Positions 10,010 to 64,000 of a stretch of 64,000 nucleotides of DNA are shown here, one piece after another. The notes beneath the pieces are model-generated. The model worked only from the letters and a program-made list of their open reading frames with translations, was not told where the DNA came from and did not search any database. Location: NCBI GenBank assembly GCA_965220465.1, contig CBDCPZ010000025.1, positions 918,936 through 982,935 of the forward strand, in the 5' to 3' direction. Each line of letters starts with the position of its first letter. The first letter of the stretch is position 1. A program made the position numbers and the translations under genes. The stretch comes from Saprospiraceae bacterium. Its GTDB lineage: Bacteria; Bacteroidota; Bacteroidia; Chitinophagales; Saprospiraceae.

Positions 10010-10645
10010 ATGAGATATCTAATACTAATCATAGGCTTATTGACTCTTTTTAACTTCAAGCTTTCTGCTCAAGAGTCAAAGGAAGGATTGATTCAATTTT
10101 CAGGAATTGTACTTGATGGTTCTAATCAGGATTTATATCCAATCCCATATACAAATATTTATATCAAAGATAAGGGTCGAGGTACTTATTCTGATTTCAA
10201 AGGGTTCTTTTCTATCGTTGTTGAAAAAGGTGATAATGTAGTTTTTTCGGCAATTGGTTTTAGAACAGTTGAAATAACGATCCCTGACACTTTGAGTGAT
10301 GACCGATATTCTTTAGTGCAATTAATGTCTCAAGATACTGTTAACCTTCCAATGACTGTGGTTTTTCCCTGGCCAAGCCGAGAAAATTTTAAACTGGAAT
10401 TTTTGGCAATGGATGTTTCTTCAGAAATGCAGCAGCGAGCAATTGAAAACTTAGCACAGGAAACTTTAAAAAATGGAAGATCTGTAGTCGCTACTGATGG
10501 AAATGAACACGGTGATTATTATTTGCGTCAACAATCCAACCAATATTATTATGTCGGTCAATCCCCGCCTTCCAATATTTTTAGCCCAATTGCATGGAAG
10601 AAGTTTTTTGACTCCTGGAAAAATGGAGATTATAAAAAAAAGTAG
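10010..10645 (+). CDS. Secreted carboxypeptidase-regulatory-like domain protein
   Basis: Has a signal peptide. The segment GIVLDGSNQDLYPIPYTNIYIKDKGRGTYSDFKGFFSI fits the CarboxypepD_reg fold pattern. Confidence 0.5.
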   Translation: MRYLILIIGLLTLFNFKLSAQESKEGLIQFSGIVLDGSNQDLYPIPYTNIYIKDKGRGTYSDFKGFFSIVVEKGDNVVFSAIGFRTVEITIPDTLSDDRYSLVQLMSQDTVNLPMTVVFPWPSRENFKLEFLAMDVSSEMQQRAIENLAQETLKNGRSVVATDGNEHGDYYLRQQSNQYYYVGQSPPSNIFSPIAWKKFFDSWKNGDYKKK

Positions 10646-17800: not shown

Positions 17801-18067
17801 AAAACTAATATCCTGAACGACAATGAAATAACAATCTATCCAAATCCAACAAGCGGAAAACTCCACATTCAATTTGAACAACCGCTTCAGGATAAAGTAA
17901 TCATTGAGGTGTTTTCACCAAATGGGCAATTGGTTCAACACATCACTACGGATAATTTTAATACCGATACAGAACTTGATTTAAAAAGCTTTGCTGATGG
18001 AATTTATTTAATCCGAATAATAAATAAAGAGACCGTTTTAAGACGAAAAATTGTTTTACAAAAATAA
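14807..18067 (+). CDS. T9SS-exported trypsin-like (S1, lysyl-endopeptidase-like) serine protease with proprotein-convertase P-domain and Fn3/Ig-like repeats
   Basis: Has a signal peptide. TAKHCG provides the catalytic His and GSSGSPLF the catalytic Ser. A P-domain-like segment (DITALDIYHSWVGDLVVTIESPSG...WKMTIIDKADGD) follows. The C-terminus (ITIYPNPTSGKLHIQFEQ...DGIYLIRI) is a T9SS sorting domain. Confidence 0.75.
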   Translation: MKTRFLIFTFSLFSVLSFSQNDSRLADGLVPITAIEKIAMPILDNEFLLQKEMERRGPDLAPKFAESMEVNISPNSNGNWESATNGNLVWRLVIQSANAKSINLGFTKYKMPKGGSLILYSSDYQHILGPFTPADNEEHEQLWTPVVPGDEIVIEVQIPEKSRTDLELELKYVNHDFLGFGGVTSGNCNIDVICGTMDGWAQIDEYRDIIRSVAVIGTNGNTYCSGFLVNNTRNDCTPYFITAKHCGIYSANAPTLVTYWNYENTYCREIGSADNGNEGDGNLNNYNTGAFFRACYAETDFTLLELDDPVSETANAFFAGWSNLPVAPTKAISVHHPGADEKRISFENDPLMLTNGLESNPETNFNHVRVVDWDSGTTEQGSSGSPLFNQNKQVVGQLHGGAAACGNNKSDWYGSFAISWLGGGSASTRLKDWLDPDDTGVPTLNGREQSACNIYVESNPASTELCSPSNTVFQLYASETFETNVTLSASSDIPGTDNLILDNNLIAPGDSTQLHLIVDPSVPTGIYTIFITGTAGLVTVSKNIEVTIFETAPPSLALITPPDEKMNTSIIPRFRWIEGPMEATYEIQIATDSNFTNIVESIVELDTNFYDNTTLEVLTNYFWRVRAANLCGDGTWSQIYSFKTADVHCLVSSSVDVPITLPENDTPTTVSTTEILENGLVTDVDITALDIYHSWVGDLVVTIESPSGITATLFDQPGVPASSFGCPEDNLFLAFNDEATENYETFDNTCNEGNMAIEGTFQPYQPLKIFNGEVAKGVWKMTIIDKADGDGGMLNGWNLNICSTIIPDISITSSMLEPTYCIGENITFQLTLGSDFDSTGINLSTIGNPIGSTIEFSENNVLPGATVEVTIQGINSIGNYPILFFANDGTNSFNSEINIQITGTPAAPHLMFPLNGQTGIPLAPMLFWTGSEYASGYLVEIAEDEFFNNVIASNLQVDLEYLTPQLNENQQYFWRVTAQNECGETSSSVFNFTTDVINKTNILNDNEITIYPNPTSGKLHIQFEQPLQDKVIIEVFSPNGQLVQHITTDNFNTDTELDLKSFADGIYLIRIINKETVLRRKIVLQK

Positions 18068-50035: not shown

Positions 50036-52387
50036 TCACTCGAGTCGGTAATTTATTCCAAATCTTATAAACCGCTTGGACTGTGGATTGTAAATAAGGC
50101 CATCTGCATCAGGAGTTGCATCTAACCCAGCGTATTCAACATTGAAAAAATTATTGATTCTCATATATGCCAGCAATTGTTTGTTGAATTGATAATTAAC
50201 CGTCATATCGAGTGTATAATATCCGGAATTATACAATTTACCACTTTCCAGCAAATCAGGATCCTGGTAAAAGAGCGCATTCTGCGTCAAACTTCTCGTC
50301 AAAAAAGTGTTTTCAAACAGCAATCGGACTTTTTTTAAAGGCTTAAGTTCAATATCCAACTGTATAATCCATTCTGGCTGAGAACGAAGATCATCCAATT
50401 CGAGCAATACGAATTCAAATTCCTTGAAAGAAAAAGTGCTGAAACCTTCTTTTCCTCTGGCATAATTCAAATTGAACGTACTGCTAAGGCCGATGGCGGG
50501 CAATATATTTTTAAAAGTAATGCTCGATTGAATGCCATATAATTCGGCGTAAGCATTTTTATCATTAAAATACCCACTAATAAATCCAACAAAATCAGTT
50601 GTAGGAACAATGGAGTAGCGGATGAAATTATTTGTACGGGAAAAATAAACAGCCGCATCACCGTGAACTTTCGGCCCCAGTGTCCAGCGGCAGCCAATTT
50701 CAGCACTAAAGGTTTGTTCAGGGCTCAATCTCGCACCGGTGTTGACAACACCAATGTTGTTAATGTTAATCGTATAAGATGTAGCAGAGTAATAAGGTGA
50801 AGGGTAACGGTATGAACTGCCTGTTGATCCGCGGAGACTTAACTTATCCGTCCATCGATATTGCAATGCCAGTCTGGGATTCATGATCAACTGGGCACTT
50901 TCTGAATAATCAGTTATACGGGTAAATAATTGTGTCCCTATTATGACGTTCCATTTACCGATATTCACATAACCTTCCAAAAAAGTACTAAAATCAAAAT
51001 AATATGCTTCGTCGATAACGATACGTTCGATAATCAGACTGTCGCTAAGGTCACTTAAAGGATTGGGGCTAAAATTCCGCAAAGGTGCCCCCCCTCCTCC
51101 TTGCAACTTAACACCTGAGGTGAGTTCAAATTTTTCACTAAAATCATAATTCATTAGAGACTCAATCATAATTTCCCCTGACAGAGCGGAACTATACCGG
51201 TTGCCGGAAAAATACAGTTCATTGACCACTTGCTTCAGCGAATCTAATTGTTGTTCATTTCCCGAAATGTCTTCTGCAATTACTTGATGAATAAAATTGA
51301 AAAAGGGAATTACGTAGGAATATGAACTGTTATCATCAGTCTGGTAGGCAATTACGCTGAAAGAGTTTTTTATATGAAAGCGATCATTTGTTTTGCTATT
51401 ATTGAGTTGGAAACTGGTAATCTTTTCTCCAAAAAAGTTAAGTGGATTAGCGTAGGATACAGCATAGGGGCTCAAACCAATTGAGCTGTGATCACGGCGA
51501 TAATAGTTTTGGACGGATAGCTGCCAATTTCGATAACGCAGATCAATTCCCAGCGCATTGCTTAAATGAGGTAATTGGCCCAATTGAGGAGTCTCTTCGG
51601 TTCCTTTGTAATTGGGACTGTTGAGATAAGAAAAATTTTCGGGATTTAAGACACGTTGATAGGTAAGCGGATTATAAAGCGAATCCATGTCATATTTGAT
51701 TCTCCTGTCGTCGAAAGTTGTATAATTTCCAAACACTTGAAACTTCAACACCTTCTTGTCTTTTCCCATCTTTCCGCTAAACATTATATCTAAATTTTTA
51801 AACCCATCTCCACCAAATCCCAGATCAGATTGTAAATAAATAGGCCGTTCGGATTCTTTCAGAATAATGTTTATAATGCCGGCAGAAGCATCAATTCCAT
51901 AAATAGTAGCCGCAGGGCCATAAATAATTTCGATGCGCTCGGCTTCACGAATGGGAAATTGAGCTCCAATGGGTACACCACTTACCAAAAAGGGCTTTAT
52001 AGGAATATCGTTGATCAAAATTTTCGCGTAGGTATTACCCAGCAAACCTCTCATTAAAAAAGTTTCTCCCTCTAACGCCGAACCCGGTTGTGACACCCGT
52101 ATCCCCGGCAAACGTTTAAGTACATCAGTAAGGGTCAGGTAGCCATTTTTTCGTATCTCTTCACCAGTAATTACAAATATGGTAAATGGAAGGTCAGCAA
52201 CTTCTTTTTCCGAGCGACTTCCTGAGATGACCTTTGTTCCTTGTAGCAAGTCCTCGCTGCTTTTAACATCTTTCCAGTTGAGTTGTGAGAATTCCAATCG
52301 CAAACTATCCTCTTGTTGACCATAAAGTACTGTAAAGGCAAGCATAAAAGTAATCCAAATACAAGTCAAAGGTTTGCGGTGGCCCAT
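50036..52387 (-). CDS. TonB-dependent outer-membrane receptor
   Basis: Has a plug domain (DVLKRLPGIRVSQ...) and a C-terminal beta-barrel. The preferred start is MGHRKPLTCIWITFMLAFTVLYGQQ at 52387. The longest ORF extends to 52456. Confidence 0.75.
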   Translation of the reverse strand: MGHRKPLTCIWITFMLAFTVLYGQQEDSLRLEFSQLNWKDVKSSEDLLQGTKVISGSRSEKEVADLPFTIFVITGEEIRKNGYLTLTDVLKRLPGIRVSQPGSALEGETFLMRGLLGNTYAKILINDIPIKPFLVSGVPIGAQFPIREAERIEIIYGPAATIYGIDASAGIINIILKESERPIYLQSDLGFGGDGFKNLDIMFSGKMGKDKKVLKFQVFGNYTTFDDRRIKYDMDSLYNPLTYQRVLNPENFSYLNSPNYKGTEETPQLGQLPHLSNALGIDLRYRNWQLSVQNYYRRDHSSIGLSPYAVSYANPLNFFGEKITSFQLNNSKTNDRFHIKNSFSVIAYQTDDNSSYSYVIPFFNFIHQVIAEDISGNEQQLDSLKQVVNELYFSGNRYSSALSGEIMIESLMNYDFSEKFELTSGVKLQGGGGAPLRNFSPNPLSDLSDSLIIERIVIDEAYYFDFSTFLEGYVNIGKWNVIIGTQLFTRITDYSESAQLIMNPRLALQYRWTDKLSLRGSTGSSYRYPSPYYSATSYTININNIGVVNTGARLSPEQTFSAEIGCRWTLGPKVHGDAAVYFSRTNNFIRYSIVPTTDFVGFISGYFNDKNAYAELYGIQSSITFKNILPAIGLSSTFNLNYARGKEGFSTFSFKEFEFVLLELDDLRSQPEWIIQLDIELKPLKKVRLLFENTFLTRSLTQNALFYQDPDLLESGKLYNSGYYTLDMTVNYQFNKQLLAYMRINNFFNVEYAGLDATPDADGLIYNPQSKRFIRFGINYRLE

Positions 52388-52654
52388 TAGGTTTATATCA
52401 TTTGATTTGTTGCTAAAATAGAAAGGTTTAATGAATCTAGATAAAAAGATTGCCAAATATATGGCAAATAGAAGAGCAAAACACGGAAACCTGGAGTCTT
52501 AAGCGCAATCGGGTAGATATACCTCAAAGACTTATAAGAAGTTGAATCAGCATAATAATATCGAATACATCATTTAAAGGCTCAATATTATACCAATTTG
52601 ATTTCTGAGATCGTTATTTATACGTTTCCAAATTCAGAACAAGCACTTTTGAAA

Positions 52655-53158
52655 ATGTATAAAAAATTGTTGCTCATTACCTTTTTGATTTTAGGGTTGA
52701 ATCTTTCAGCAGATGTAAATTCCCAAAAATATAAAAATAAGAACAATGCTGAAGCTTTTAAAGCTGAAATGCTAAAACTAGTTAATCAAACTCGCTCAGA
52801 AGGTTGCCAATGCGGCAATCGATACATGCCTCCTGCTCCTCCACTTAAATGGAACAATAAGCTTGAAAATGCGGCAATATTTCACGCAAAAGATATGAAT
52901 TCCAACAAATTTATTGGACATCGCGGCTCAAATGGAAGCAAAATCGGAGATCGTATTAAAGCAAATGATTATTTCTGGAAAGCTGTTGGAGAAAATGTAA
53001 GCTGGGGACCCAGAACCGTTGAAGGAGCAATACAAGGATGGAAGGACAGTCCAAGCCATTGCATCACTTTGATGAGTCCCAGCTATAAAGAAATGGGCGC
53101 AGCAAATGAGGGCAAATTTTGGGTTCAAAATTTTGGCCGTAAAATGGAAGGTAACTAG
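52655..53158 (+). CDS. CAP/SCP/PR-1-domain secreted protein
   Basis: Has the CAP motifs (HAKDM...GHRG; GENV...W; HC). The signal peptide begins at MYKKLLLITFLILG. The longest ORF starts at 52598. Confidence 0.65.
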   Translation: MYKKLLLITFLILGLNLSADVNSQKYKNKNNAEAFKAEMLKLVNQTRSEGCQCGNRYMPPAPPLKWNNKLENAAIFHAKDMNSNKFIGHRGSNGSKIGDRIKANDYFWKAVGENVSWGPRTVEGAIQGWKDSPSHCITLMSPSYKEMGAANEGKFWVQNFGRKMEGN

Positions 53159-58893: not shown

Positions 58894-59496
58894 GTGCAAA
58901 ACAACTTTGACATTTACGGATTGATCTTAACCGGTGGTTTCAGCAAACGCATGGGAAAAGAAAAAGCTTTGCTGGATTATCATGGAAAACCACAGTTTAC
59001 TTACCTTTTTGACCTCCTTAGCCAATTTTGTGAAAAAGTGTTTTTGTCGTGTCGGGCAGCGCAATCGCTTCAATTTGGAGATCAATACCCAAAGATTTTA
59101 GATATCCATGACGGCATTGGCCCGATGAATGGCTTGCTTTCTTTTTTTGAAAAATATCCTTCGCAAGCATGTTTGATTGTTGCCTGCGATATGCCTTTTA
59201 TTGATGAAAGAGCGATCCGTTTTTTAATAAAAAATCGTCAGTCGGATCAGTTTGCAACCGCTTTTAAAAGTAAAAAAGAATTCCCCGAACCATTGCTAAC
59301 TATTTGGGAACCAAAATCTTACAAAGAATTAAACACTGCCTTTCAAAAAGGGAATTTTTCGCTGCGGGATATTCTACAAATAAACAATTGTCATATTTTG
59401 CAAACCGCTAACGATAAGACGCTATTAAATATCAATAATCCGGAAGAGTTGGAAACTGTCCTCGAAGTGTTGAAATTACCGCCCGAAAAACCGTAA
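58894..59496 (+). CDS. mobA: Molybdenum cofactor guanylyltransferase
   Basis: Has the GLILTGGFSKRMG nucleotide-binding loop. Confidence 0.75.
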   Translation: MQNNFDIYGLILTGGFSKRMGKEKALLDYHGKPQFTYLFDLLSQFCEKVFLSCRAAQSLQFGDQYPKILDIHDGIGPMNGLLSFFEKYPSQACLIVACDMPFIDERAIRFLIKNRQSDQFATAFKSKKEFPEPLLTIWEPKSYKELNTAFQKGNFSLRDILQINNCHILQTANDKTLLNINNPEELETVLEVLKLPPEKP

Positions 59497-59529
59497 TTTC
59501 GAATTAATCATCGGTTTTAATTATTTTTT

Positions 59530-60357
59530 ATGAAAAGCACCACTCCTGTCAAAATCTGGAATGTTACCCAAAAACAACGCGTCGAGAAAAGTGATTTTCT
59601 TGCTGTAGAAGAACCCGTTGAAATTCAACTAAAACTAAAAGATCAGCCACCAAAGAGCATTTCGATTACCATGCGGACGCCCGGCAATGACTTTGAATTG
59701 GCGATTGGCTTTTTGTTTACCGAAGGAATTATCCAATCAAAAGCTCAAGTCGACAATATTGATTACGCGAAGGTTTGGGAAACCGAAAAAGAAGGAAATA
59801 TTGTTTTAGTTGAAATTGCAGAAGGCGTGGAAATAGATTTTCAAAGGTTGGAAAGACATTTTTACACCTCATCAAGTTGCGGCGTTTGTGGCAAAGCTTC
59901 CATCGATGCTGTGAAATTTAGCGGAATGAAAGAAATCCCTCAGTGGCAGCCTGTATTTGACCATAAATTGGTCCACAATCTTCCGGATTTGCTACGGGAA
60001 AAACAAGCCGTTTTTGAAGATACGGGCGGCCTCCATGCCGCTGCGCTGTTTGATAACACTGGAACCCTTCACCTGCTCCGCGAAGATGTCGGACGCCATA
60101 ATGCCGTTGACAAATTGGTTGGTGCGGCGCTGCTAAAAGAAATGATTCCACTGAATGATTTTCTGATTATGGTGAGCGGAAGGGCCAGTTTTGAGTTGAT
60201 TCAAAAATCGTTGATGGCCGGAATTCCAATACTGGCTGCTGTCGGTGCTCCTTCGAGTTTGGCGATTTCGCTGGCAAAAGAAGCGGGAATGACTGTACTG
60301 GGTTTTGTTCGCGACGAGCGATTTAACATTTACTCAGGTGCTGATCGAATTAGTTAA
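59530..60357 (+). CDS. fdhD: Formate dehydrogenase accessory sulfurtransferase FdhD
   Basis: Has the SSSCGVCG motif and the C-terminal RHNAVDK region. Confidence 0.85.
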   Translation: MKSTTPVKIWNVTQKQRVEKSDFLAVEEPVEIQLKLKDQPPKSISITMRTPGNDFELAIGFLFTEGIIQSKAQVDNIDYAKVWETEKEGNIVLVEIAEGVEIDFQRLERHFYTSSSCGVCGKASIDAVKFSGMKEIPQWQPVFDHKLVHNLPDLLREKQAVFEDTGGLHAAALFDNTGTLHLLREDVGRHNAVDKLVGAALLKEMIPLNDFLIMVSGRASFELIQKSLMAGIPILAAVGAPSSLAISLAKEAGMTVLGFVRDERFNIYSGADRIS

Positions 60358-61088
60358 ATTGGTTTGTTAGCGTATAAAACATTTTCTCCAGCTTTCAAAC
60401 CAAAGAAATCCTCCTTTTCAAAAGAGTTCACTTTTACGGTAAAACCTGCTTTTTCCAGGCGCTGTTTCAATCCATCAACCGAATATATTCGGACATGATC
60501 TTCCTGGTCAAAATGAATTTTTCGATCTTCACGGCTAGTTATCCTTTCATTTTCATAAATATCCCCTTCTTTGAATGGCGTTTGAATAATTGTTGTTCCA
60601 CCGGGCTTCAAAACTCTAAAAAGTTCTTTCATGGCCTGCGAATCATTTTGGATATGCTCCAAAATGTGGTAACAGATGATAAAATCAAAAAGATTGTCCT
60701 CCGTTTCAAGATTTGTAATATCGTATTTCTTGTCCGCTAAAAATTCATTTTCAAAGTCTGTGCTGACATAATCGATCGTTTTGTATTTTTTCAAACGACG
60801 GTAAAGGCTTCGCGATGGTGAAAAATGGAGGATTTTTCCAGTTATTTTCAATTCTTCTCTCAATAACTTCCAAAGTCTTCTGGTTCGAGGCAGGCTTCCG
60901 CAAAAGGGGCAAATCGTATCTCCATTTTCCAAAACAATGAATCCGGAAAGCTTTCTTTCACAAACCGGGCATTGATGTTTCGAGCCGCTATGCCAAATTC
61001 CTATCGGCCATCTCAAAGTTTCCTCCATTTGAAACAAAATGGAATTTGGGAGTATTGATTTTATAGTCTTTTTTAACGTTTGATACAT
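60354..61088 (-). CDS. Class I SAM-dependent methyltransferase with N-terminal CxxC...CxxC zinc ribbon
   Basis: Has CPVCERK...CPFCG and the methyltransferase motifs (LHFSPS; DFIICYHILEH). The preferred start is MYQTLKK at 61088. The ORF track extends to 61148. Confidence 0.6.
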   Translation of the reverse strand: MYQTLKKTIKSILPNSILFQMEETLRWPIGIWHSGSKHQCPVCERKLSGFIVLENGDTICPFCGSLPRTRRLWKLLREELKITGKILHFSPSRSLYRRLKKYKTIDYVSTDFENEFLADKKYDITNLETEDNLFDFIICYHILEHIQNDSQAMKELFRVLKPGGTTIIQTPFKEGDIYENERITSREDRKIHFDQEDHVRIYSVDGLKQRLEKAGFTVKVNSFEKEDFFGLKAGENVLYANKPI

Positions 61089-61180
61089 TATAATTTTTAC
61101 GAAAACCAATTGTAATATTAAAAAAGGAAAATCAACACCAACGGCCACTTTTCCTTTTTTACAACAAAAATAATCAACAA

Positions 61181-62848
61181 TTATTCGAACAGAATCTTGC
61201 CTGTTTTAAAATTGCCATGATCGTCTTCAATCCGATAGAGGTAAATTCCGTTGGTCAACCCTTCACGATTTATTTTTATAAGGTTGCCAACTGTGCTTTC
61301 TTTGTATTTCAGTTCTCTTCCAAGCAAATCAAAAATACGCAGCCGAACATCACCTGAACCCGCTGGTAACTCAAAGGTTAAATCATCCCGTGCAGGATTT
61401 GGAAAAACAGAAATCTCGTCCAAAGGGCTATAAATACCTTCCACGGCATTTGGGTTTTCGAAAACGACGCCAGTCGTATCCTCCGTGTACATCAGGATCA
61501 TAACCATCATTTCATCATCCGAAGTTGGTCCAAACCAAACCGGTGAGGGGCCATTATTTTCGTAGGTCGCTTCATGAATGATCCCGTTTGAAGCATTGAA
61601 AGTGATTGGCAAAAATGGTTCATAATAGAGCATCGGAATATGTTGATAATCATAGAACGGAGAAACGCATCCGGGAACCCCCAAAGCGCATGAAGCGTCG
61701 TAAATCAGCTCTCCTTGACTGCTATTTTCTCTTTTGTAAACTTTGTAACCGGTTCCCCATTGATGCGTATGCCCCATGATTCCCCAGATAAAAACTTCTC
61801 CAATATTATCATTGACAATCTGAGTTTCAATGTCTTCATTTCCATTATTATCAATATAAATATTATCATTTACTATCAGTTCAGTTTTCATTTCCTGAGC
61901 CGCAGTTCCGCTTGCTTGTGTGTAAATATTGACATAAACCTCAGCTTGATAAGTATTGGTTGCTGAATAATTGATGTAGTGAGAATTCAGATCCAACACC
62001 AGATCATTGTCCCAAATAAACGCAGTACCCTGCGGAAGCTTTAAATCAGTCGCTTCCTGAACAGCCGCAACCAAACCAATCCCGTTGTGGTAAGCATTGG
62101 ACCGTAAACCCGGACTTAGGTTTTGGGCATACGACGGATTATCAAAATCGTATATAATAAAGTGGTGAGATGAAGTAGCGATTTTGATATCCACACGTGT
62201 AACATCCACATCAACTGGTAAATCGAGTTCATATTTTTGGAAATATTCCAATTCATCTCCCACTTGACCTGAAGGTCTCAAATAAAAGGGTCCCATTTTG
62301 ATTTGAAATCCTTCATTTGCAGCGGGTGGTTCGGGAGCATCGTTTGGAAAGCTAGCAAGGCCATTTACATTGTAATAATCAAATATCACCTGCTCATCAA
62401 TCACTTCTCCGATTACAGGAGCACCGTATAAAATCCATTGCCGGATTAATTCTTTTTCTTCAATAGTAAGTTGAGGTTCGGAGGCTGGTGGTTGGGCAGC
62501 CCCTTCTTCGGTTTCAAGATGAATCGTTTGTTCCAGTCCATCACTTATTTTTCTAAATAAATAACTTCGATCTGTACGACCCGGATAAATATATTTATAC
62601 CCTTTACTTTCCGCAAAGCTATTGTCCGGAGTCACATTGACGATATTATTGTACACATCAAGTACTTGCGCTTCCATATTGATTCCGGCGCCTTCCAAAT
62701 CCAGTCCACTTTGGGGAGCATTATGGCCATGGCAACTGATGCATTTTTCCTGAAATATTTCAAAAACGCGAATACTTGTCGATTGGGCCATTAGTCCAAA
62801 ACTCATGAAGTTCATCAAAAAGACAAGTGAGAGTATTTTTTTCATCAT
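61181..62848 (-). CDS. T9SS-exported c-type cytochrome (PSCyt1-like) fused to a PHM/DBH-like copper monooxygenase
   Basis: Has a signal peptide. A CISCH haem-c motif (residues 36-40) is followed by an L..EE..LI..WI..GAP element typical of the PSCyt1 domain. The candidate copper ligands are HH (228-229), H290, HTH (360-362) and Met-rich MMVMILM (~447-453), with PHM-like 60-70-aa spacing. The C-terminus is a T9SS sorting domain (ISVFPNPARDDLTFEL...GIYLYRI). Confidence 0.6.
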   Translation of the reverse strand: MMKKILSLVFLMNFMSFGLMAQSTSIRVFEIFQEKCISCHGHNAPQSGLDLEGAGINMEAQVLDVYNNIVNVTPDNSFAESKGYKYIYPGRTDRSYLFRKISDGLEQTIHLETEEGAAQPPASEPQLTIEEKELIRQWILYGAPVIGEVIDEQVIFDYYNVNGLASFPNDAPEPPAANEGFQIKMGPFYLRPSGQVGDELEYFQKYELDLPVDVDVTRVDIKIATSSHHFIIYDFDNPSYAQNLSPGLRSNAYHNGIGLVAAVQEATDLKLPQGTAFIWDNDLVLDLNSHYINYSATNTYQAEVYVNIYTQASGTAAQEMKTELIVNDNIYIDNNGNEDIETQIVNDNIGEVFIWGIMGHTHQWGTGYKVYKRENSSQGELIYDASCALGVPGCVSPFYDYQHIPMLYYEPFLPITFNASNGIIHEATYENNGPSPVWFGPTSDDEMMVMILMYTEDTTGVVFENPNAVEGIYSPLDEISVFPNPARDDLTFELPAGSGDVRLRIFDLLGRELKYKESTVGNLIKINREGLTNGIYLYRIEDDHGNFKTGKILFE

Positions 62849-63087
62849 GATATTGAGGGGTTTTTATGATAGAAAAACTTATAGCATTTCAAATGTAATA
62901 ATTTCAACCACAAACATTTATTATGTTTCTTACAAATTACTGTTTTATTTAAGTCACAATTGTTAAAATTTAAAATTTCAGAACGGATAAATTATTAAAA
63001 ATAGGTAGATTTACTTTATCAAAAATTCATATTTCAGATTCGTGTTTTTATGTTTTTGATTTTCAAAAAAACTAAATCCATCTATTA

Positions 63088-64000
63088 TGAAAAGATCAAT
63101 TTTCACTTTATTCGTTTTTAGTTACGTTGTACTATTTCCTACATTTTCAACAGCGCAGGATTTTCCGTATTATTTTTCTGTGGAAAACGGAGTGTATGCT
63201 AACCTGACAGATCCCATTTCTCTGAATAACGGGGAGGTTTGGGATGATCCTGATTTTATCATTCCGGTTGGGTTTCAATTTGAATTTTTTGGACAGGATT
63301 ATGATACGCTATTCTCGTTTGAAGCCCTTGGAGCCTTATTGTTTGCAATCAACTCCGGAGACCCAATATTACCTACATTGATACCTTTTGGCGATGACCT
63401 TATTGATAGAGGTGACATAGTGGAGCAATCAATGTCCCCGATTTCATATAAAACTGAAGGAAATCAAGGTAGTCAAATCTGCAAAATAGAATGGCAAAAC
63501 GCAGGGTTTTATAATGAATTAGCGGAGTTAAATCAAAGTTTAAGTTTTGTGAATTTGCAATTGTGGCTATATGAAGCAACCGGTGATATTGAAATTCATT
63601 TTGGGCCAAACCATATTGAAGATGACGTAATCTGCTATGAAGGCAATCATGGACCTATTATCGGATTAATTGATTCGGTTTATCTTATTGAGGACGAACT
63701 CGGCACTTTTTGGTATTTAGGAAATGACCCGAATGATCCCGATATACTTAATGTTGGTGAGATTATTGATTTTCCTGGAGAAGTCCCTAATCTGTTAACA
63801 GGAACACCAACTGATGGGGTTATTTATAAATTTTCTCTCAGCCCGGTCAGTGTGCATCAAACTAATTATTTAGAAAATGTAAAAATATTCCCAACGCTAA
63901 CTGAGGGAATCATCCACATTGAATCACTGGATCAAAACCCTTTGAATATGGTAATTGTTGACAGTAATGGAAAAATTGTATTTGAACGAAAATCCGTCCG
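63088..64000 (+). CDS. Secreted protein with T9SS C-terminal sorting domain, 3'-truncated at the window end
   Basis: An uninterrupted ORF runs from ATG 63088 to the window end. It has a signal peptide (MKRSIFTLFVFSYVVLFPTFSTAQ), and its last residues (KIFPTLTEGIIHIESLDQNPLNMVIVDSNGKIVF) are T9SS-like. Confidence 0.55.

What the first reader, a model, noticed from the sequence alone, without database searches (positions are those of the whole stretch)
61181..62848. Secreted haem-c / copper-monooxygenase fusion exported by the T9SS
One 555-aa protein has four modules in order.
- A signal peptide.
- A PSCyt1-like c-type cytochrome module, with CISCH at residues 36-40 and a downstream LIRQWILYGAP element.
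- A two-lobe domain with the ligand pattern and spacing of peptidylglycine alpha-hydroxylating monooxygenase / dopamine beta-hydroxylase. HH at 228-229 and H at ~290 would form a CuH site. HxH at 360-362 plus a Met cluster near 447-453 would form a CuM site.
- A T9SS C-terminal sorting domain.
PHM-type enzymes normally depend on ascorbate or a separate cytochrome. A covalently attached haem-c domain would supply electrons itself, and T9SS export points to a cell-surface or extracellular oxidative function. A Zn-ribbon SAM methyltransferase sits 33-90 nt downstream on the same strand. A second T9SS protein is divergently transcribed at 63088.
Basis: partly seen in the sequence, partly recalled or inferred. 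Interest (0 to 1): 0.7.

Follow-up and report, generated by a model that had tools for sequence, protein, structure and literature searches.

The report
Secreted cytochrome-c / PHM-like copper enzyme
This gene encodes a secreted bacterial protein that joins a haem-c cytochrome domain to a two-copper catalytic core of the type found in animal peptide-amidating and dopamine-hydroxylating enzymes; it belongs to a large Bacteroidota family that public records label only by its secretion tag.

Summary
ORF 61181-62848 (-) encodes a 555-aa protein with four parts:
- a signal peptide;
- an N-terminal CxxCH domain of PSCyt1 / class-I cytochrome c type;
- a two-lobe core;
- a T9SS type-A C-terminal sorting domain, which scores above the curated cut-offs.

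The AlphaFold model of the core matches PHM and DBH over about 310 residues (Foldseek E 4e-12, TM 0.64-0.68).

A profile alignment puts H228/H229/H290 on PHM CuH ligands H107/H108/H172. It puts H360/H362/M447 on CuM ligands H242/H244/M314. Five of these six are among only nine invariant columns in 84-121 relatives at 29-51% identity.

The family is large: 632 clusters at 50% identity. It is essentially Bacteroidota (Saprospiraceae, Lewinellaceae, Chitinophagales), and 82 of 84 sampled members carry the T9SS domain. Public names are "T9SS sorting domain protein" or "hypothetical".

Caveats:
- Pfam copper-domain scores are below threshold for this protein.
- PHM's peptidylglycine-binding residues are not conserved.
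- The expected distal haem Met is Gln119 here.
- The methyltransferase neighbour is lineage-specific, and no operon partner is conserved.
- Substrate and electron donor are unknown.

Best reading: a secreted PHM/DBH-type copper monooxygenase with a built-in cytochrome electron relay. I class it as a new variant of a known kind.

The parts
61181..62848 (-). Whole gene, 555 codons plus stop (TAA at 61181-61183)
   Evidence: Listed as an ORF. It is 100% identical to database protein P0001 and has more than 750 homologs.
62786..62848 (-). Signal peptide, residues 1-21 (MMKKILSLVFLMNFMSFGLMA), with predicted cleavage before Q22
   Evidence: Read directly from the sequence. Q22 is at least 90% conserved in the 41-sequence alignment. 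A Gln after the cleavage site is usual for Bacteroidota signal-peptidase-I substrates (my own knowledge). No predictor was run.
62417..62785 (-). N-terminal mono-haem c-type cytochrome domain of PSCyt1 / class-I type, residues 22-144
   Evidence: - Pfam, all below gathering score: PSCyt1 20.6 bits (threshold 22), Cytochrome_CBB3 18.2 bits.
- 39 of 41 homologs hit Cytochrome_CBB3 and 36 of 41 hit PSCyt1.
- Best PDB profile match is the C-terminal haem domain of hydrazine synthase alpha, E 0.033, over the whole domain.
- AF2 model pLDDT 85.
62729..62743 (-). Haem-attachment motif C36-I-S-C39-H40
   Evidence: Invariant in 121 homologs. It is the only CxxCH in any ORF of at least 100 aa in the window. 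Distant relatives carry Cx3CH or Cx4CH at the same place.
62486..62494 (-). Q119-P-P, at the position of the MPP distal-ligand loop just before the last helix of the cytochrome domain
   Evidence: About 101 of 121 homologs have Met here, about 8 have Gln (including this protein) and about 10 have His. That this position is the sixth haem ligand is inferred from class-I / PSCyt1 topology, not shown.
62324..62416 (-). Conserved linker with one helix, residues 145-175, joining the cytochrome domain to the copper core
   Evidence: Helix 152-162 is modelled at pLDDT above 90. Y159 and P175 are conserved.
61904..62323 (-). PHM-like N-lobe (the CuH lobe), residues 176-315
   Evidence: Foldseek matches to PHM and DBH and the hhalign alignment to PHM. 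There is no Pfam Cu2_monooxygen hit.
62162..62167 (-). H228-H229, equivalent to PHM CuH ligands H107-H108
   Evidence: Aligned by hhalign. Invariant in 84-121 diverse relatives.
61979..61981 (-). H290, equivalent to PHM CuH ligand H172. The neighbouring N288 aligns with Q170.
   Evidence: Aligned by hhalign. Present in 146 of 150 representatives.
61463..61903 (-). PHM-like C-lobe (the CuM lobe), residues 316-462
   Evidence: - Foldseek match.
- Pfam Cu2_monoox_C at residues 352-458: 15.4 bits, E 0.013, below the threshold of 23.
- 47 of 84 relatives hit this model, best E 5.8e-6.
61763..61771 (-). H360-T-H362, equivalent to PHM CuM ligands H242 and H244
   Evidence: Aligned in the HMMER output against PHM chains and by hhalign. 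Invariant in relatives.
61490..61525 (-). TSDDEMMVMILM motif. M447 is equivalent to PHM CuM ligand M314 (PHM reads TSSDEMCNLYIM).
   Evidence: Aligned. E446 and M447 are invariant.
61184..61408 (-). T9SS type-A C-terminal sorting domain, residues 481-555
   Evidence: PF18962 at 41.9 bits (threshold 27) and TIGR04183 at 41.5 bits (threshold 23). It matches PDB 8glj_D, a T9SS-bound sorting domain, at E 1.9e-6.
62890..62897 (-). Possible Bacteroidota -7 promoter element TACATTTG, 41 nt upstream of the ATG (low confidence)
   Evidence: Found by motif scan. The motif occurs 86 times in the window on both strands, so this may be chance. The sigma-70 scan of the region was at chance level.

Best explanation
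The gene encodes a secreted redox enzyme. I describe it as a route in five steps.

1. A Sec signal peptide takes the protein to the periplasm.
2. There, haem is attached covalently to C36 and C39, with H40 as the proximal ligand, and copper is loaded.
3. The folded protein is recognised through its type-A C-terminal domain and exported across the outer membrane by the type IX secretion system.
4. Outside the cell, the two-lobe core works as a PHM/DBH-type non-coupled binuclear copper monooxygenase. CuH (H228, H229, H290) stores and passes an electron to CuM (H360, H362, M447). At CuM, O2 is activated to hydroxylate a C-H bond of an extracellular substrate.
5. The fused cytochrome c domain sits immediately N-terminal to the CuH lobe. 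It takes the place of ascorbate as the one-electron feed to the copper sites, and is itself reduced by an unidentified external donor.

The substrate is not a glycine-extended peptide.

Shown computationally: domain identities, ligand conservation and the secretion tag. Inferred: cofactor loading, direction of electron flow, monooxygenase chemistry, substrate and donor.
For: **Fold.** The full-length AF2 model has pLDDT 86.5 and pTM 0.74.
- Ranks 1-31 in the PDB search are all PHM or DBH: E 3.8e-12 to 4.6e-9, probability 1.0, TM normalised to PHM 0.58-0.68, over about 300-320 columns spanning both lobes.
- The next match has TM 0.16.

**Ligands.**
- hhalign of the core profile against rat PHM maps all six copper ligands one-to-one. 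The PHM sequence was verified identical to 1opm_A. N288 falls on Q170.
- HMMER independently aligns mGHTHkyG with vHTHhlG, and GpTSdDEMmv with GgTSsDEMcn.

**Conservation.**
- The ligands are invariant in 121 close homologs.
- They are present in 145-148 of 150 representatives of 50%-identity clusters.
- They account for 5 of only 9 invariant columns at 29-51% identity.
- 47 of 84 relatives hit Pfam Cu2_monoox_C, best E 5.8e-6.

**Cytochrome domain.**
- CxxCH is invariant, with Pfam hits across the family.
- Relative P0125 carries a canonical Cytochrom_C domain (34.3 bits, above threshold) in front of the same core. A haem-c domain has therefore been joined to this core in two forms.

**Secretion.** The sorting domain scores above the cut-offs and is kept in 82 of 84 diverse relatives, some with PKD or Ig spacers.

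**Precedent.** An extracellular c-type cytochrome domain reduces a secreted copper monooxygenase: CjX183 and bacterial LPMOs (PMC8981238).
Against: - This protein is below Pfam gathering scores for Cu2_monoox_C (15.4 against 23) and PSCyt1 (20.6 against 22). It has no Cu2_monooxygen hit.
- The hhalign probability is only 17%, against a single-sequence template.
- The expected distal Met is Gln119 here. The haem may therefore be five-coordinate, or differently ligated, and not a simple electron carrier.
- Six distant relatives lack any CxnCH motif yet keep all six copper ligands. The copper core can evidently do without covalent haem.
- No electron donor for an extracellular haem is evident.
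- No conserved operon partner gives a functional hint.
- The tools return no model coordinates, so the copper-site geometry and the haem-to-CuH distance were not measured.
- There are no experimental data for any member.
Confidence: 0.62

Rival explanations
1. Electrons flow the other way, or the protein is mainly an extracellular electron-transfer or oxidase protein. The haem c or the copper sites would oxidise an external reductant, such as Fe(II) or a phenolic or thiol compound, and reduce O2 to water or peroxide without hydroxylating an organic substrate.
For: - There is no recognisable substrate-binding signature. PHM residues R240, N316 and Y318 are replaced by M358, V449 and I451.
- The axial ligand varies among Met, His and Gln, which suggests tuning of haem potential or reactivity.
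Against: - The complete His3 plus His2Met ligand set of the monooxygenase family is strictly conserved over a very diverse family.
- In the known members, PHM and DBH, O2 reduction is tightly coupled to substrate hydroxylation (PMC12164859).
Confidence: 0.13
2. It is a peroxide-driven or peroxide-producing enzyme. A five-coordinate haem (Gln119 in place of Met) would bind or generate H2O2 or O2, and the copper core would use H2O2 as co-substrate. Alternatively, the protein's role is to generate or remove reactive oxygen species at the cell surface.
For: - The distal Met is missing in this protein and in its nearest relatives. The Gln replacement also appears in P0038 and P0078, which are more distant homologs (55% and 55% identity).
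- The choice of electron donor changes how much H2O2 a copper monooxygenase produces: less with CjX183 than with ascorbate for an LPMO (PMC8981238).
Against: - About 83% of close homologs keep Met at this position, so low-spin His/Met haem is the family norm.
- There are no peroxidase-type distal residues or family hits.
- The assignment of residue 119 as the axial ligand is itself an inference.
Confidence: 0.1
3. It is a true peptidylglycine alpha-hydroxylating enzyme, or a DBH-like amine hydroxylase, acting on C-terminal glycine peptides or phenylethylamines as the animal enzymes do.
For: Same fold and same six ligands as PHM and DBH.
Against: - The residues that hold the peptidylglycine carboxylate and backbone in PHM are Arg240, Asn316 and Tyr318 (PMC12164859). 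Here they are M358, V449 and I451, and the positions vary across the family.
- There is no PAL-like lyase partner or other conserved neighbour.
- Sequence identity to PHM is only 12-16%.
Confidence: 0.05
4. It is non-catalytic. The PHM-like jelly-roll lobes would serve as a binding or adhesin module, or as a copper or haem scavenger, and the motifs would be relics.
For: - The PHM lobes share their jelly-roll fold with non-redox proteins.
- Many T9SS cargoes are adhesins.
- Some relatives carry Ig, PKD, cadherin or SprB-like domains.
Against: - Relic motifs would not be the most conserved columns of a family spanning 632 clusters at 50% identity.
- Five of the nine invariant columns are copper ligands.
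- The haem motif is retained in 121 of 127 full-length representatives.
Confidence: 0.05

Closest known systems
Peptidylglycine alpha-hydroxylating monooxygenase (PHM; catalytic core of PAM; PDB 1PHM, 1OPM, 1SDW)
   Same: - Two-lobe beta-sandwich fold (Foldseek E 4e-12, TM about 0.65 over both lobes).
- CuH ligands as HH...H and CuM ligands as HxH...M, with nearly the same spacing: 228/229-290-360/362-447 here against 107/108-172-242/244-314 in PHM.
- A shared G-x-T-S-x-D-E-M motif.
- An amide residue (N288) at the Q170 position.
   Different: - 12-16% identity, and below the Pfam thresholds.
- None of PHM's disulfides is kept. This protein has its own pair, C387 and C394.
- Substrate-binding residues R240, N316 and Y318 are not conserved.
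- Bacterial, and secreted by the T9SS.
- A covalent haem-c domain is fused N-terminally, in place of reliance on ascorbate.
- No PAL lyase domain.
Dopamine beta-hydroxylase / tyramine beta-monooxygenase / MOXD (PDB 4ZEL)
   Same: The same catalytic core (Foldseek E 2e-10). These are also multidomain proteins with an extra N-terminal domain (DOMON) placed before the CuH lobe.
   Different: - The N-terminal partner here is a c-type cytochrome, not a DOMON beta-sandwich.
- There is no dimerisation domain.
- The origin is prokaryotic.
- The substrate is unknown.
Extracellular c-type cytochrome domains that reduce secreted copper monooxygenases (CjX183 of Cellvibrio japonicus Cbp2D with AA10 LPMOs; functionally like the fungal CDH cytochrome with LPMO)
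   Same: A small secreted haem-c domain acts as one-electron donor to a secreted copper oxygenase outside the cell (PMC8981238). This protein would work in the same way.
   Different: - Here donor and copper enzyme are a single polypeptide.
- The copper centre is a binuclear PHM type, not a mononuclear histidine brace. The mature N-terminus is Gln22, not His.
- Export is by the T9SS.
- No carbohydrate-binding module is present in this protein.
PSCyt1 (Planctomycete cytochrome C, PF07635) and the C-terminal haem domain of hydrazine synthase alpha (PDB 5C2V)
   Same: - CxxCH followed by G-L-D-L.
- A later P-G-x-x-x-x-S-x-L-F-x-K element.
- An MPP loop, and a closing E-x-x-I-R-x-W-I-x-x-G-A helix.
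- The profile aligns over the whole domain with 5c2v_A residues 652-766.
   Different: - The scores are marginal: 20.6 bits against 22, and E 0.033.
- An insertion of about 40 residues lies between the motif and the MPP loop.
- The MPP Met is Gln in this protein.
- The partner domains differ: PSD1/PSCyt2 or a beta-propeller in the known families.
T9SS type-A CTD cargo proteins (TIGR04183 / PF18962; PDB 8GLJ, 8GLK)
   Same: A canonical C-terminal sorting domain scoring above the curated cut-offs, plus an N-terminal Sec signal peptide.
   Different: In the searches run here I found no described T9SS cargo that combines covalent haem c with a binuclear copper centre. Public annotation stops at the sorting domain.

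Membership tests
PHM/DBH copper type II ascorbate-dependent monooxygenases (non-coupled binuclear copper monooxygenases) | Two-lobe antiparallel beta-sandwich catalytic core | tested here: met
   The AF2 model (pLDDT 86.5) matches about 30 PHM chains and DBH at E 4e-12 to 5e-9, probability 1.0, TM normalised to the target 0.58-0.68, over about 310 columns.
PHM/DBH copper type II ascorbate-dependent monooxygenases (non-coupled binuclear copper monooxygenases) | CuH site made of three His (HH plus a His about 60 residues later) | tested here: met
   H228, H229 and H290 align with H107, H108 and H172. They are invariant or nearly so in 121 homologs and 150 representatives. This is sequence-level evidence only.
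PHM/DBH copper type II ascorbate-dependent monooxygenases (non-coupled binuclear copper monooxygenases) | CuM site made of HxH plus a Met | tested here: met
   H360, H362 and M447 align with H242, H244 and M314 in both the HMMER and the hhalign alignments. All three are invariant.
PHM/DBH copper type II ascorbate-dependent monooxygenases (non-coupled binuclear copper monooxygenases) | Pfam Cu2_monoox_C (PF03712) at or above gathering score | tested here: not met
   15.4 bits against 23, E 0.013, at residues 352-458. 47 of 84 relatives hit at E <= 0.1, best 5.8e-6.
PHM/DBH copper type II ascorbate-dependent monooxygenases (non-coupled binuclear copper monooxygenases) | Pfam Cu2_monooxygen (PF01082, N-lobe) hit | tested here: not met
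   No hit at E <= 1 for this protein. The model is not among the 25 families listed for the 84 relatives.
PHM/DBH copper type II ascorbate-dependent monooxygenases (non-coupled binuclear copper monooxygenases) | Two copper sites about 11 A apart across a solvent cleft | not testable with these tools
   The structure tool returns no coordinates, so the geometry could not be measured.
PHM/DBH copper type II ascorbate-dependent monooxygenases (non-coupled binuclear copper monooxygenases) | Binds 2 Cu and carries out O2- and reductant-dependent C-H hydroxylation | not testable with these tools
   This needs recombinant protein, metal analysis and activity assays.
PHM proper (peptidylglycine specificity) | Carboxylate and backbone anchors Arg240, Asn316 and Tyr318 | tested here: not met
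   The aligned residues are M358, V449 and I451. Across the family these positions are S/T/Q/M, I/L/V and Y/I/F. Their roles in PHM are described in PMC12164859.
c-type cytochrome (class I-like / PSCyt1) | CxxCH covalent haem-binding motif | tested here: met
   C36-I-S-C39-H40, invariant in 121 homologs.
c-type cytochrome (class I-like / PSCyt1) | A family profile at or above the curated threshold | tested here: inconclusive
   PSCyt1 20.6 bits against 22, Cytochrome_CBB3 18.2 against 27. 39 and 36 of 41 homologs hit these models at E <= 0.1. Some homologs have PF13442 precomputed.
c-type cytochrome (class I-like / PSCyt1) | Cytochrome c fold | tested here: inconclusive
c-type cytochrome (class I-like / PSCyt1) | Distal Met (or His) axial ligand | tested here: not met
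   The position of the family's MPP Met is Q119 in this protein. Among close homologs Met is present in about 83% and His in about 8%. The ligand assignment is inferred from topology.
T9SS type-A CTD cargo | C-terminal sorting domain (TIGR04183 / PF18962) above cut-off | tested here: met
   41.5 bits against 23 and 41.9 against 27. Matches PDB 8glj_D at E 1.9e-6.
T9SS type-A CTD cargo | N-terminal Sec signal peptide | tested here: inconclusive
   The sequence shows a typical n-region, h-region and c-region with A|Q. No signal-peptide predictor is available.
T9SS type-A CTD cargo | T9SS machinery in the same genome, and export shown | not tested
   The lineage is Saprospiraceae, in Bacteroidota. 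GldM was seen next to paralogs in a relative. The machinery was not searched for in this genome.
Lytic polysaccharide monooxygenases (considered as a functional analogue only) | Histidine brace with His as the first residue of the mature protein | tested here: not met
   The mature N-terminus is Q22. The fold is PHM-like, not LPMO-like.

The most novel reading that the evidence does not exclude
This family is a previously unrecognised class of secreted bacterial oxidative enzymes. Each is a single polypeptide that joins its own cytochrome electron relay to a PHM-type two-copper centre. It would hydroxylate C-H bonds next to a heteroatom in extracellular polymers (proteins, peptides or polysaccharides) and so cause oxidative chain cleavage. 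That would make it a functional counterpart of the LPMO plus cytochrome systems, deployed by abundant environmental Saprospiraceae and Chitinophagales through the T9SS.
Probability: 0.2. Interest if true: 0.85.

Novelty: new variant of a known kind. Interest (0 to 1): 0.66.

Why it matters
**Why a copper-enzyme specialist would care.** PHM, DBH and TBM are studied almost entirely as animal secretory-pathway enzymes that depend on ascorbate. Two questions about them remain debated: how electrons reach CuH, and how they cross to CuM (PMC12164859).
- A large bacterial family with the same six ligands and a covalently attached one-electron donor would be a natural system that needs no added reductant.
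- In it, electron delivery could be triggered and followed optically through the haem.

**Why a microbial ecologist would care.**
- It adds a redox enzyme combining haem c and a two-copper centre to the T9SS cargo repertoire of widespread Bacteroidota from water, sludge and marine habitats.
- It points to an extracellular oxidative activity that current annotation hides behind the label "T9SS sorting domain protein".

**Handles for mechanism.** The natural variation offers ready-made probes:
- Cx2CH, Cx3CH and Cx4CH haem motifs;
- Met, His or Gln at the distal position;
- members without haem;
- a swapped-in cytochrome domain of a different type.

Tried and rejected
- **Sequence search of PDB.** The single sequence and the profiles gave only E of about 0.2 to PHM. 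That is insufficient alone, so I moved to structure prediction and fold search.
- **AlphaFold database.** Foldseek against afdb50 was unavailable, so I could not survey annotated AlphaFold relatives or architectures in UniProt.
- **Genomic context.**
  - Clustering neighbours in 59 loci found no same-strand conserved partner. The shared genes (BamD-like, RpoZ, CoaBC, DUF4835, FdhD, GH3, LolA) are housekeeping synteny in at most 19 of 59 loci.
  - I rejected the methyltransferase as a functional partner because it occurs only in L004 and L005.
  - I could not confirm the divergent ORF as a T9SS protein.
- **Transcription signals.** Sigma-70 promoter hits were at chance level, and no terminator lies between the gene and the methyltransferase.
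- **Source record.** The look-up of P0001 failed. The organism is inferred from relatives only.
- **Literature.** Searches for bacterial PHM-like enzymes, the Pfam names, non-coupled binuclear copper in bacteria, and T9SS plus cytochrome c found nothing relevant.
- **Peptide-amidation function.** Considered and rejected for lack of R240, N316 and Y318.
- **LPMO membership.** Considered and rejected for lack of a histidine brace.
- **Paralogs.** There is no second copy in the window.
Full report
**1. The observation**

The window has an ATG-initiated ORF at 61181..62848 on the - strand, encoding 555 aa. Re-deriving the motifs from the DNA gives:
- CISCH at residues 36-40;
- EKELIRQWILYGAP at 131-144;
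- HH at 228-229, and H290;
- HTH at 360-362;
- TSDDEMMVMILM at 442-453;
- a C-terminal domain from residue 481.

This is the only CxxCH in any six-frame ORF of at least 100 aa in the whole 64-kb window, and the window holds no paralog. The N-terminus (MMKK, a hydrophobic stretch, then LMA|QST) looks like a signal-peptidase-I signal, and Q22 is at least 90% conserved. No predictor was available.

**2. Domain identities**

*T9SS sorting domain.* It passes the curated thresholds: PF18962 at 41.9 bits against 27, and TIGR04183 at 41.5 against 23. It resembles the sorting domain seen bound to the T9SS in PDB 8GLJ (E 1.9e-6).

*Copper core.* For this protein, sequence models give only weak hints.
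- Cu2_monoox_C scores 15.4 bits (E 0.013, threshold 23), and Cu2_monooxygen gives no hit.
- Family profiles reach PHM chains only at E of about 0.2.

I therefore predicted the structure from a 41-sequence alignment (pLDDT 86.5, pTM 0.74).
- Foldseek against the PDB returned PHM and DBH at ranks 1-31: E 3.8e-12 to 4.6e-9, probability 1.0, TM normalised to PHM 0.58-0.68, about 300-320 aligned columns covering both lobes.
- The next match has TM 0.16.

That chain is PAM residues 45-354, with H107, H108, H172, R240, H242, H244, M314, N316 and Y318 at the expected indices.

hhalign of the core profile against it (E 0.0015, 232 columns, probability only 17% because the template is one sequence) maps:
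- H228/H229 onto H107/H108;
- H290 onto H172;
- H360/H362 onto H242/H244;
- M447 onto M314;
- N288 onto Q170.

HMMER independently aligns the HTH and TS-DEM motifs.

*Cytochrome domain.*
- PSCyt1 scores 20.6 bits against 22, and Cytochrome_CBB3 18.2 bits.
- 39 and 36 of 41 homologs hit these two models at E <= 0.1.
- An N-domain profile aligns over its whole length with the C-terminal haem domain of hydrazine synthase alpha (E 0.033).
- A separate AF2 model (pLDDT 85) gave nothing with Foldseek.

**3. The family**

*Close relatives.* The protein has more than 750 clusters at 90% identity, all about 540-575 aa. They are named only "T9SS type A sorting domain-containing protein" or "hypothetical protein".

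*Wider family.* An exhaustive profile search with the core found 632 clusters at 50% identity with E <= 1e-3, of which 202 have E <= 1e-30.
- Nearly all have the core starting at residue 140-155.
- The short entries are N-terminally truncated gene calls that still carry the end of the cytochrome domain.

*Taxonomy.* Of 149 relatives in GTDB species genomes, the best 80 are all MAGs of Saprospiraceae, Lewinellaceae, Phaeodactylibacter or Chitinophagales, or unclassified Bacteroidota/Bacteroidetes. More distant members are Bacteroidia, Chitinophagales and Sphingobacteriales.

*Conservation.*
- Across 150 representatives the six ligand positions are kept in 145-148. Other His residues (254, 425) and the C387-C394 pair vary.
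- In alignments of 84 and 121 full-length members at 29-51% identity, only nine columns are invariant: H228, H229, P272, N293, H360, H362, E446, M447 and G534. H290 is present in at least 90%.

*Pfam on 84 diverse members.* Por_Secre_tail hits in 82, Cu2_monoox_C in 47 (best E 5.8e-6), Cytochrome_CBB3 in 26, PSCyt1 in 25 and Cytochrom_C in 7. Longer members insert PKD or Ig-like spacers before the sorting domain.

**4. Informative variation**

- *Haem motif spacing.* Among 127 full-length representatives the motif is Cx2CH in 47, Cx3CH in 22, Cx4CH in 50, Cx5CH or Cx6CH in 2, and absent in 6. The six without it keep all six copper ligands.
- *Domain swap.* P0125 carries a canonical class-I Cytochrom_C domain (34.3 bits, above threshold) in place of the PSCyt1-like one, in front of the same core. 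I take this second kind of haem-c domain as the best indirect evidence that the N-terminal module acts as a cytochrome.
- *Distal ligand.* The loop before the last helix of the domain, where class-I and PSCyt1 cytochromes place the distal Met (MPP), reads QPP in this protein.
  - Of 121 homologs about 101 have Met, about 8 have Gln and about 10 have His.
  - The Gln group is the window's own clade plus P0038 and P0078, which are more distant homologs.
  - The haem in this particular protein may therefore not be a standard His/Met centre.

**5. Context**

The gene is flanked by unrelated genes.
- Downstream on the same strand lies a Zn-ribbon class-I SAM methyltransferase (60354-61148; Methyltransf_23 at 56.9 bits). 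No terminator-like site lies between the two genes.
- That gene follows the homolog only in the two nearest relatives among 83 loci.
- Beyond it, convergently oriented, are FdhD, a MobA-like transferase, GH3 and LolA.
- In relatives, the recurring neighbours are on the opposite strand and are housekeeping genes, in at most 19 of 59 loci.
- The divergent ORF from 63087 runs off the window, has no Pfam hit and is absent from related loci.

Context therefore gives no clue to function. The gene behaves as a stand-alone unit.

**6. Mechanism**

The best-supported reading is a PHM/DBH-type non-coupled binuclear copper monooxygenase that is secreted by the T9SS, with the fused cytochrome acting as its one-electron feed.
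- In PHM, both coppers are reduced by ascorbate. The substrate carboxylate binds Arg240, with Tyr318 and Asn316. An electron-transfer path runs from H108 through Gln170. Mutating any ligand abolishes activity (PMC12164859).
- Here the ligands and the Q170-equivalent amide are kept, but R240, N316 and Y318 are M358, V449 and I451. The substrate is therefore not a glycine-extended peptide.
- The precedent for a secreted c-type cytochrome domain reducing a secreted copper oxygenase is CjX183 with bacterial LPMOs (PMC8981238).

Shown: fold, ligand conservation, haem motif and secretion tag. Inferred: cofactor loading, direction of electron flow, chemistry, substrate and the external donor.

Rivals:
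- reverse electron flow, or an oxidase or iron-oxidase-like role;
- peroxide-linked chemistry through a five-coordinate haem;
- true PHM or DBH specificity;
- a non-catalytic role.

**7. Known or new**

The literature searches found no description of a bacterial PHM-type enzyme or of this fusion. That library is incomplete, and the AlphaFold database library could not be searched. No curated NCBIfam model covers the core.

I class the protein as a new variant of a known kind. It has the catalytic core of the PHM/DBH superfamily in a new, prokaryotic, T9SS-secreted architecture fused to a cytochrome, with unknown substrate.

**Limits**
- Everything is computational.
- The hhalign probability and the cytochrome-fold scores are modest on their own.

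Noticed in passing
window 62486-62494 (-), residues 119-121: The expected distal haem ligand (Met of the family's MPP loop) is Gln in this protein and in its nearest relatives. Gln also occurs in P0038 and P0078, which are more distant homologs. About 10 of 121 homologs have His there and one has Asp.
   Followed up: partly
Representatives P0121-P0270 (N-terminal 110 residues): The haem-binding motif varies in spacing at the same position: Cx2CH in 47, Cx3CH in 22, Cx4CH in 50, Cx5CH or Cx6CH in 2. It is absent in 6 full-length members (for example P0161, P0172, P0199) that still keep all six copper ligands.
   Followed up: partly
P0125 (518 aa), residues 47-137: One relative has a canonical Pfam Cytochrom_C domain (34.3 bits, above threshold) in place of the PSCyt1-like domain, followed by the same copper core and T9SS tail. 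This looks like a domain swap.
   Followed up: partly
L084 6599-11698 and L085 8311-13396: In two related metagenomic contigs, three paralogs of the family (559-566 aa) lie in tandem. They are preceded by a protein of about 195 aa and by a divergently transcribed ECF sigma factor plus a small gene of about 85 aa. This hints at regulated, diversified copies.
   Followed up: no
window 60354-61148 (-): A class-I SAM methyltransferase with an N-terminal CxxC...CxxC zinc ribbon lies 32-92 nt downstream, with no terminator between. It follows the homolog only in the two closest relatives (L004, L005).
   Followed up: yes
window 63087-64000 (+): A divergent ORF with a signal-peptide-like start runs off the window end. 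It has no Pfam hit and no counterpart in 83 related loci. Its last 40 or so residues (VKIFPTLTEGIIHIE...) resemble the start of a T9SS sorting domain, but this is unconfirmed.
   Followed up: partly
L002 14036-14662 and L003 12154-12780: An SCO1/SenC copper-chaperone-family gene lies about 4.4 kb downstream of the homolog in one lineage. Nearby are a GMC oxidoreductase and a TonB-dependent receptor. This may be coincidence.
   Followed up: no
window 58894-60357 (+): MobA-like NTP transferase and FdhD (molybdenum-cofactor handling) genes sit next to each other and converge on the methyltransferase. In 11 related loci a molybdopterin-oxidoreductase-like ORF of about 765 aa occupies the corresponding downstream region.
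   Followed up: no
window 52598-53158 (+) and 50036-52456 (-): A small CAP (cysteine-rich secretory protein family) domain protein and a TonB-dependent receptor lie about 8-11 kb away.
   Followed up: no
P0133 (548 aa): One family member is labelled Fimbriimonadaceae (Armatimonadota) in NCBI, although it carries a T9SS sorting domain. It shares a contig length (21737) with P0138, which is labelled Bacteroidia. This is probably a binning error rather than a case outside Bacteroidota.
   Followed up: no
window 17822-18019 (+) and 10361-10492 (+): Weak tblastn matches to the sorting-domain part of the protein (E 0.098 and 3.9) suggest other T9SS cargo genes elsewhere in the window.
   Followed up: no
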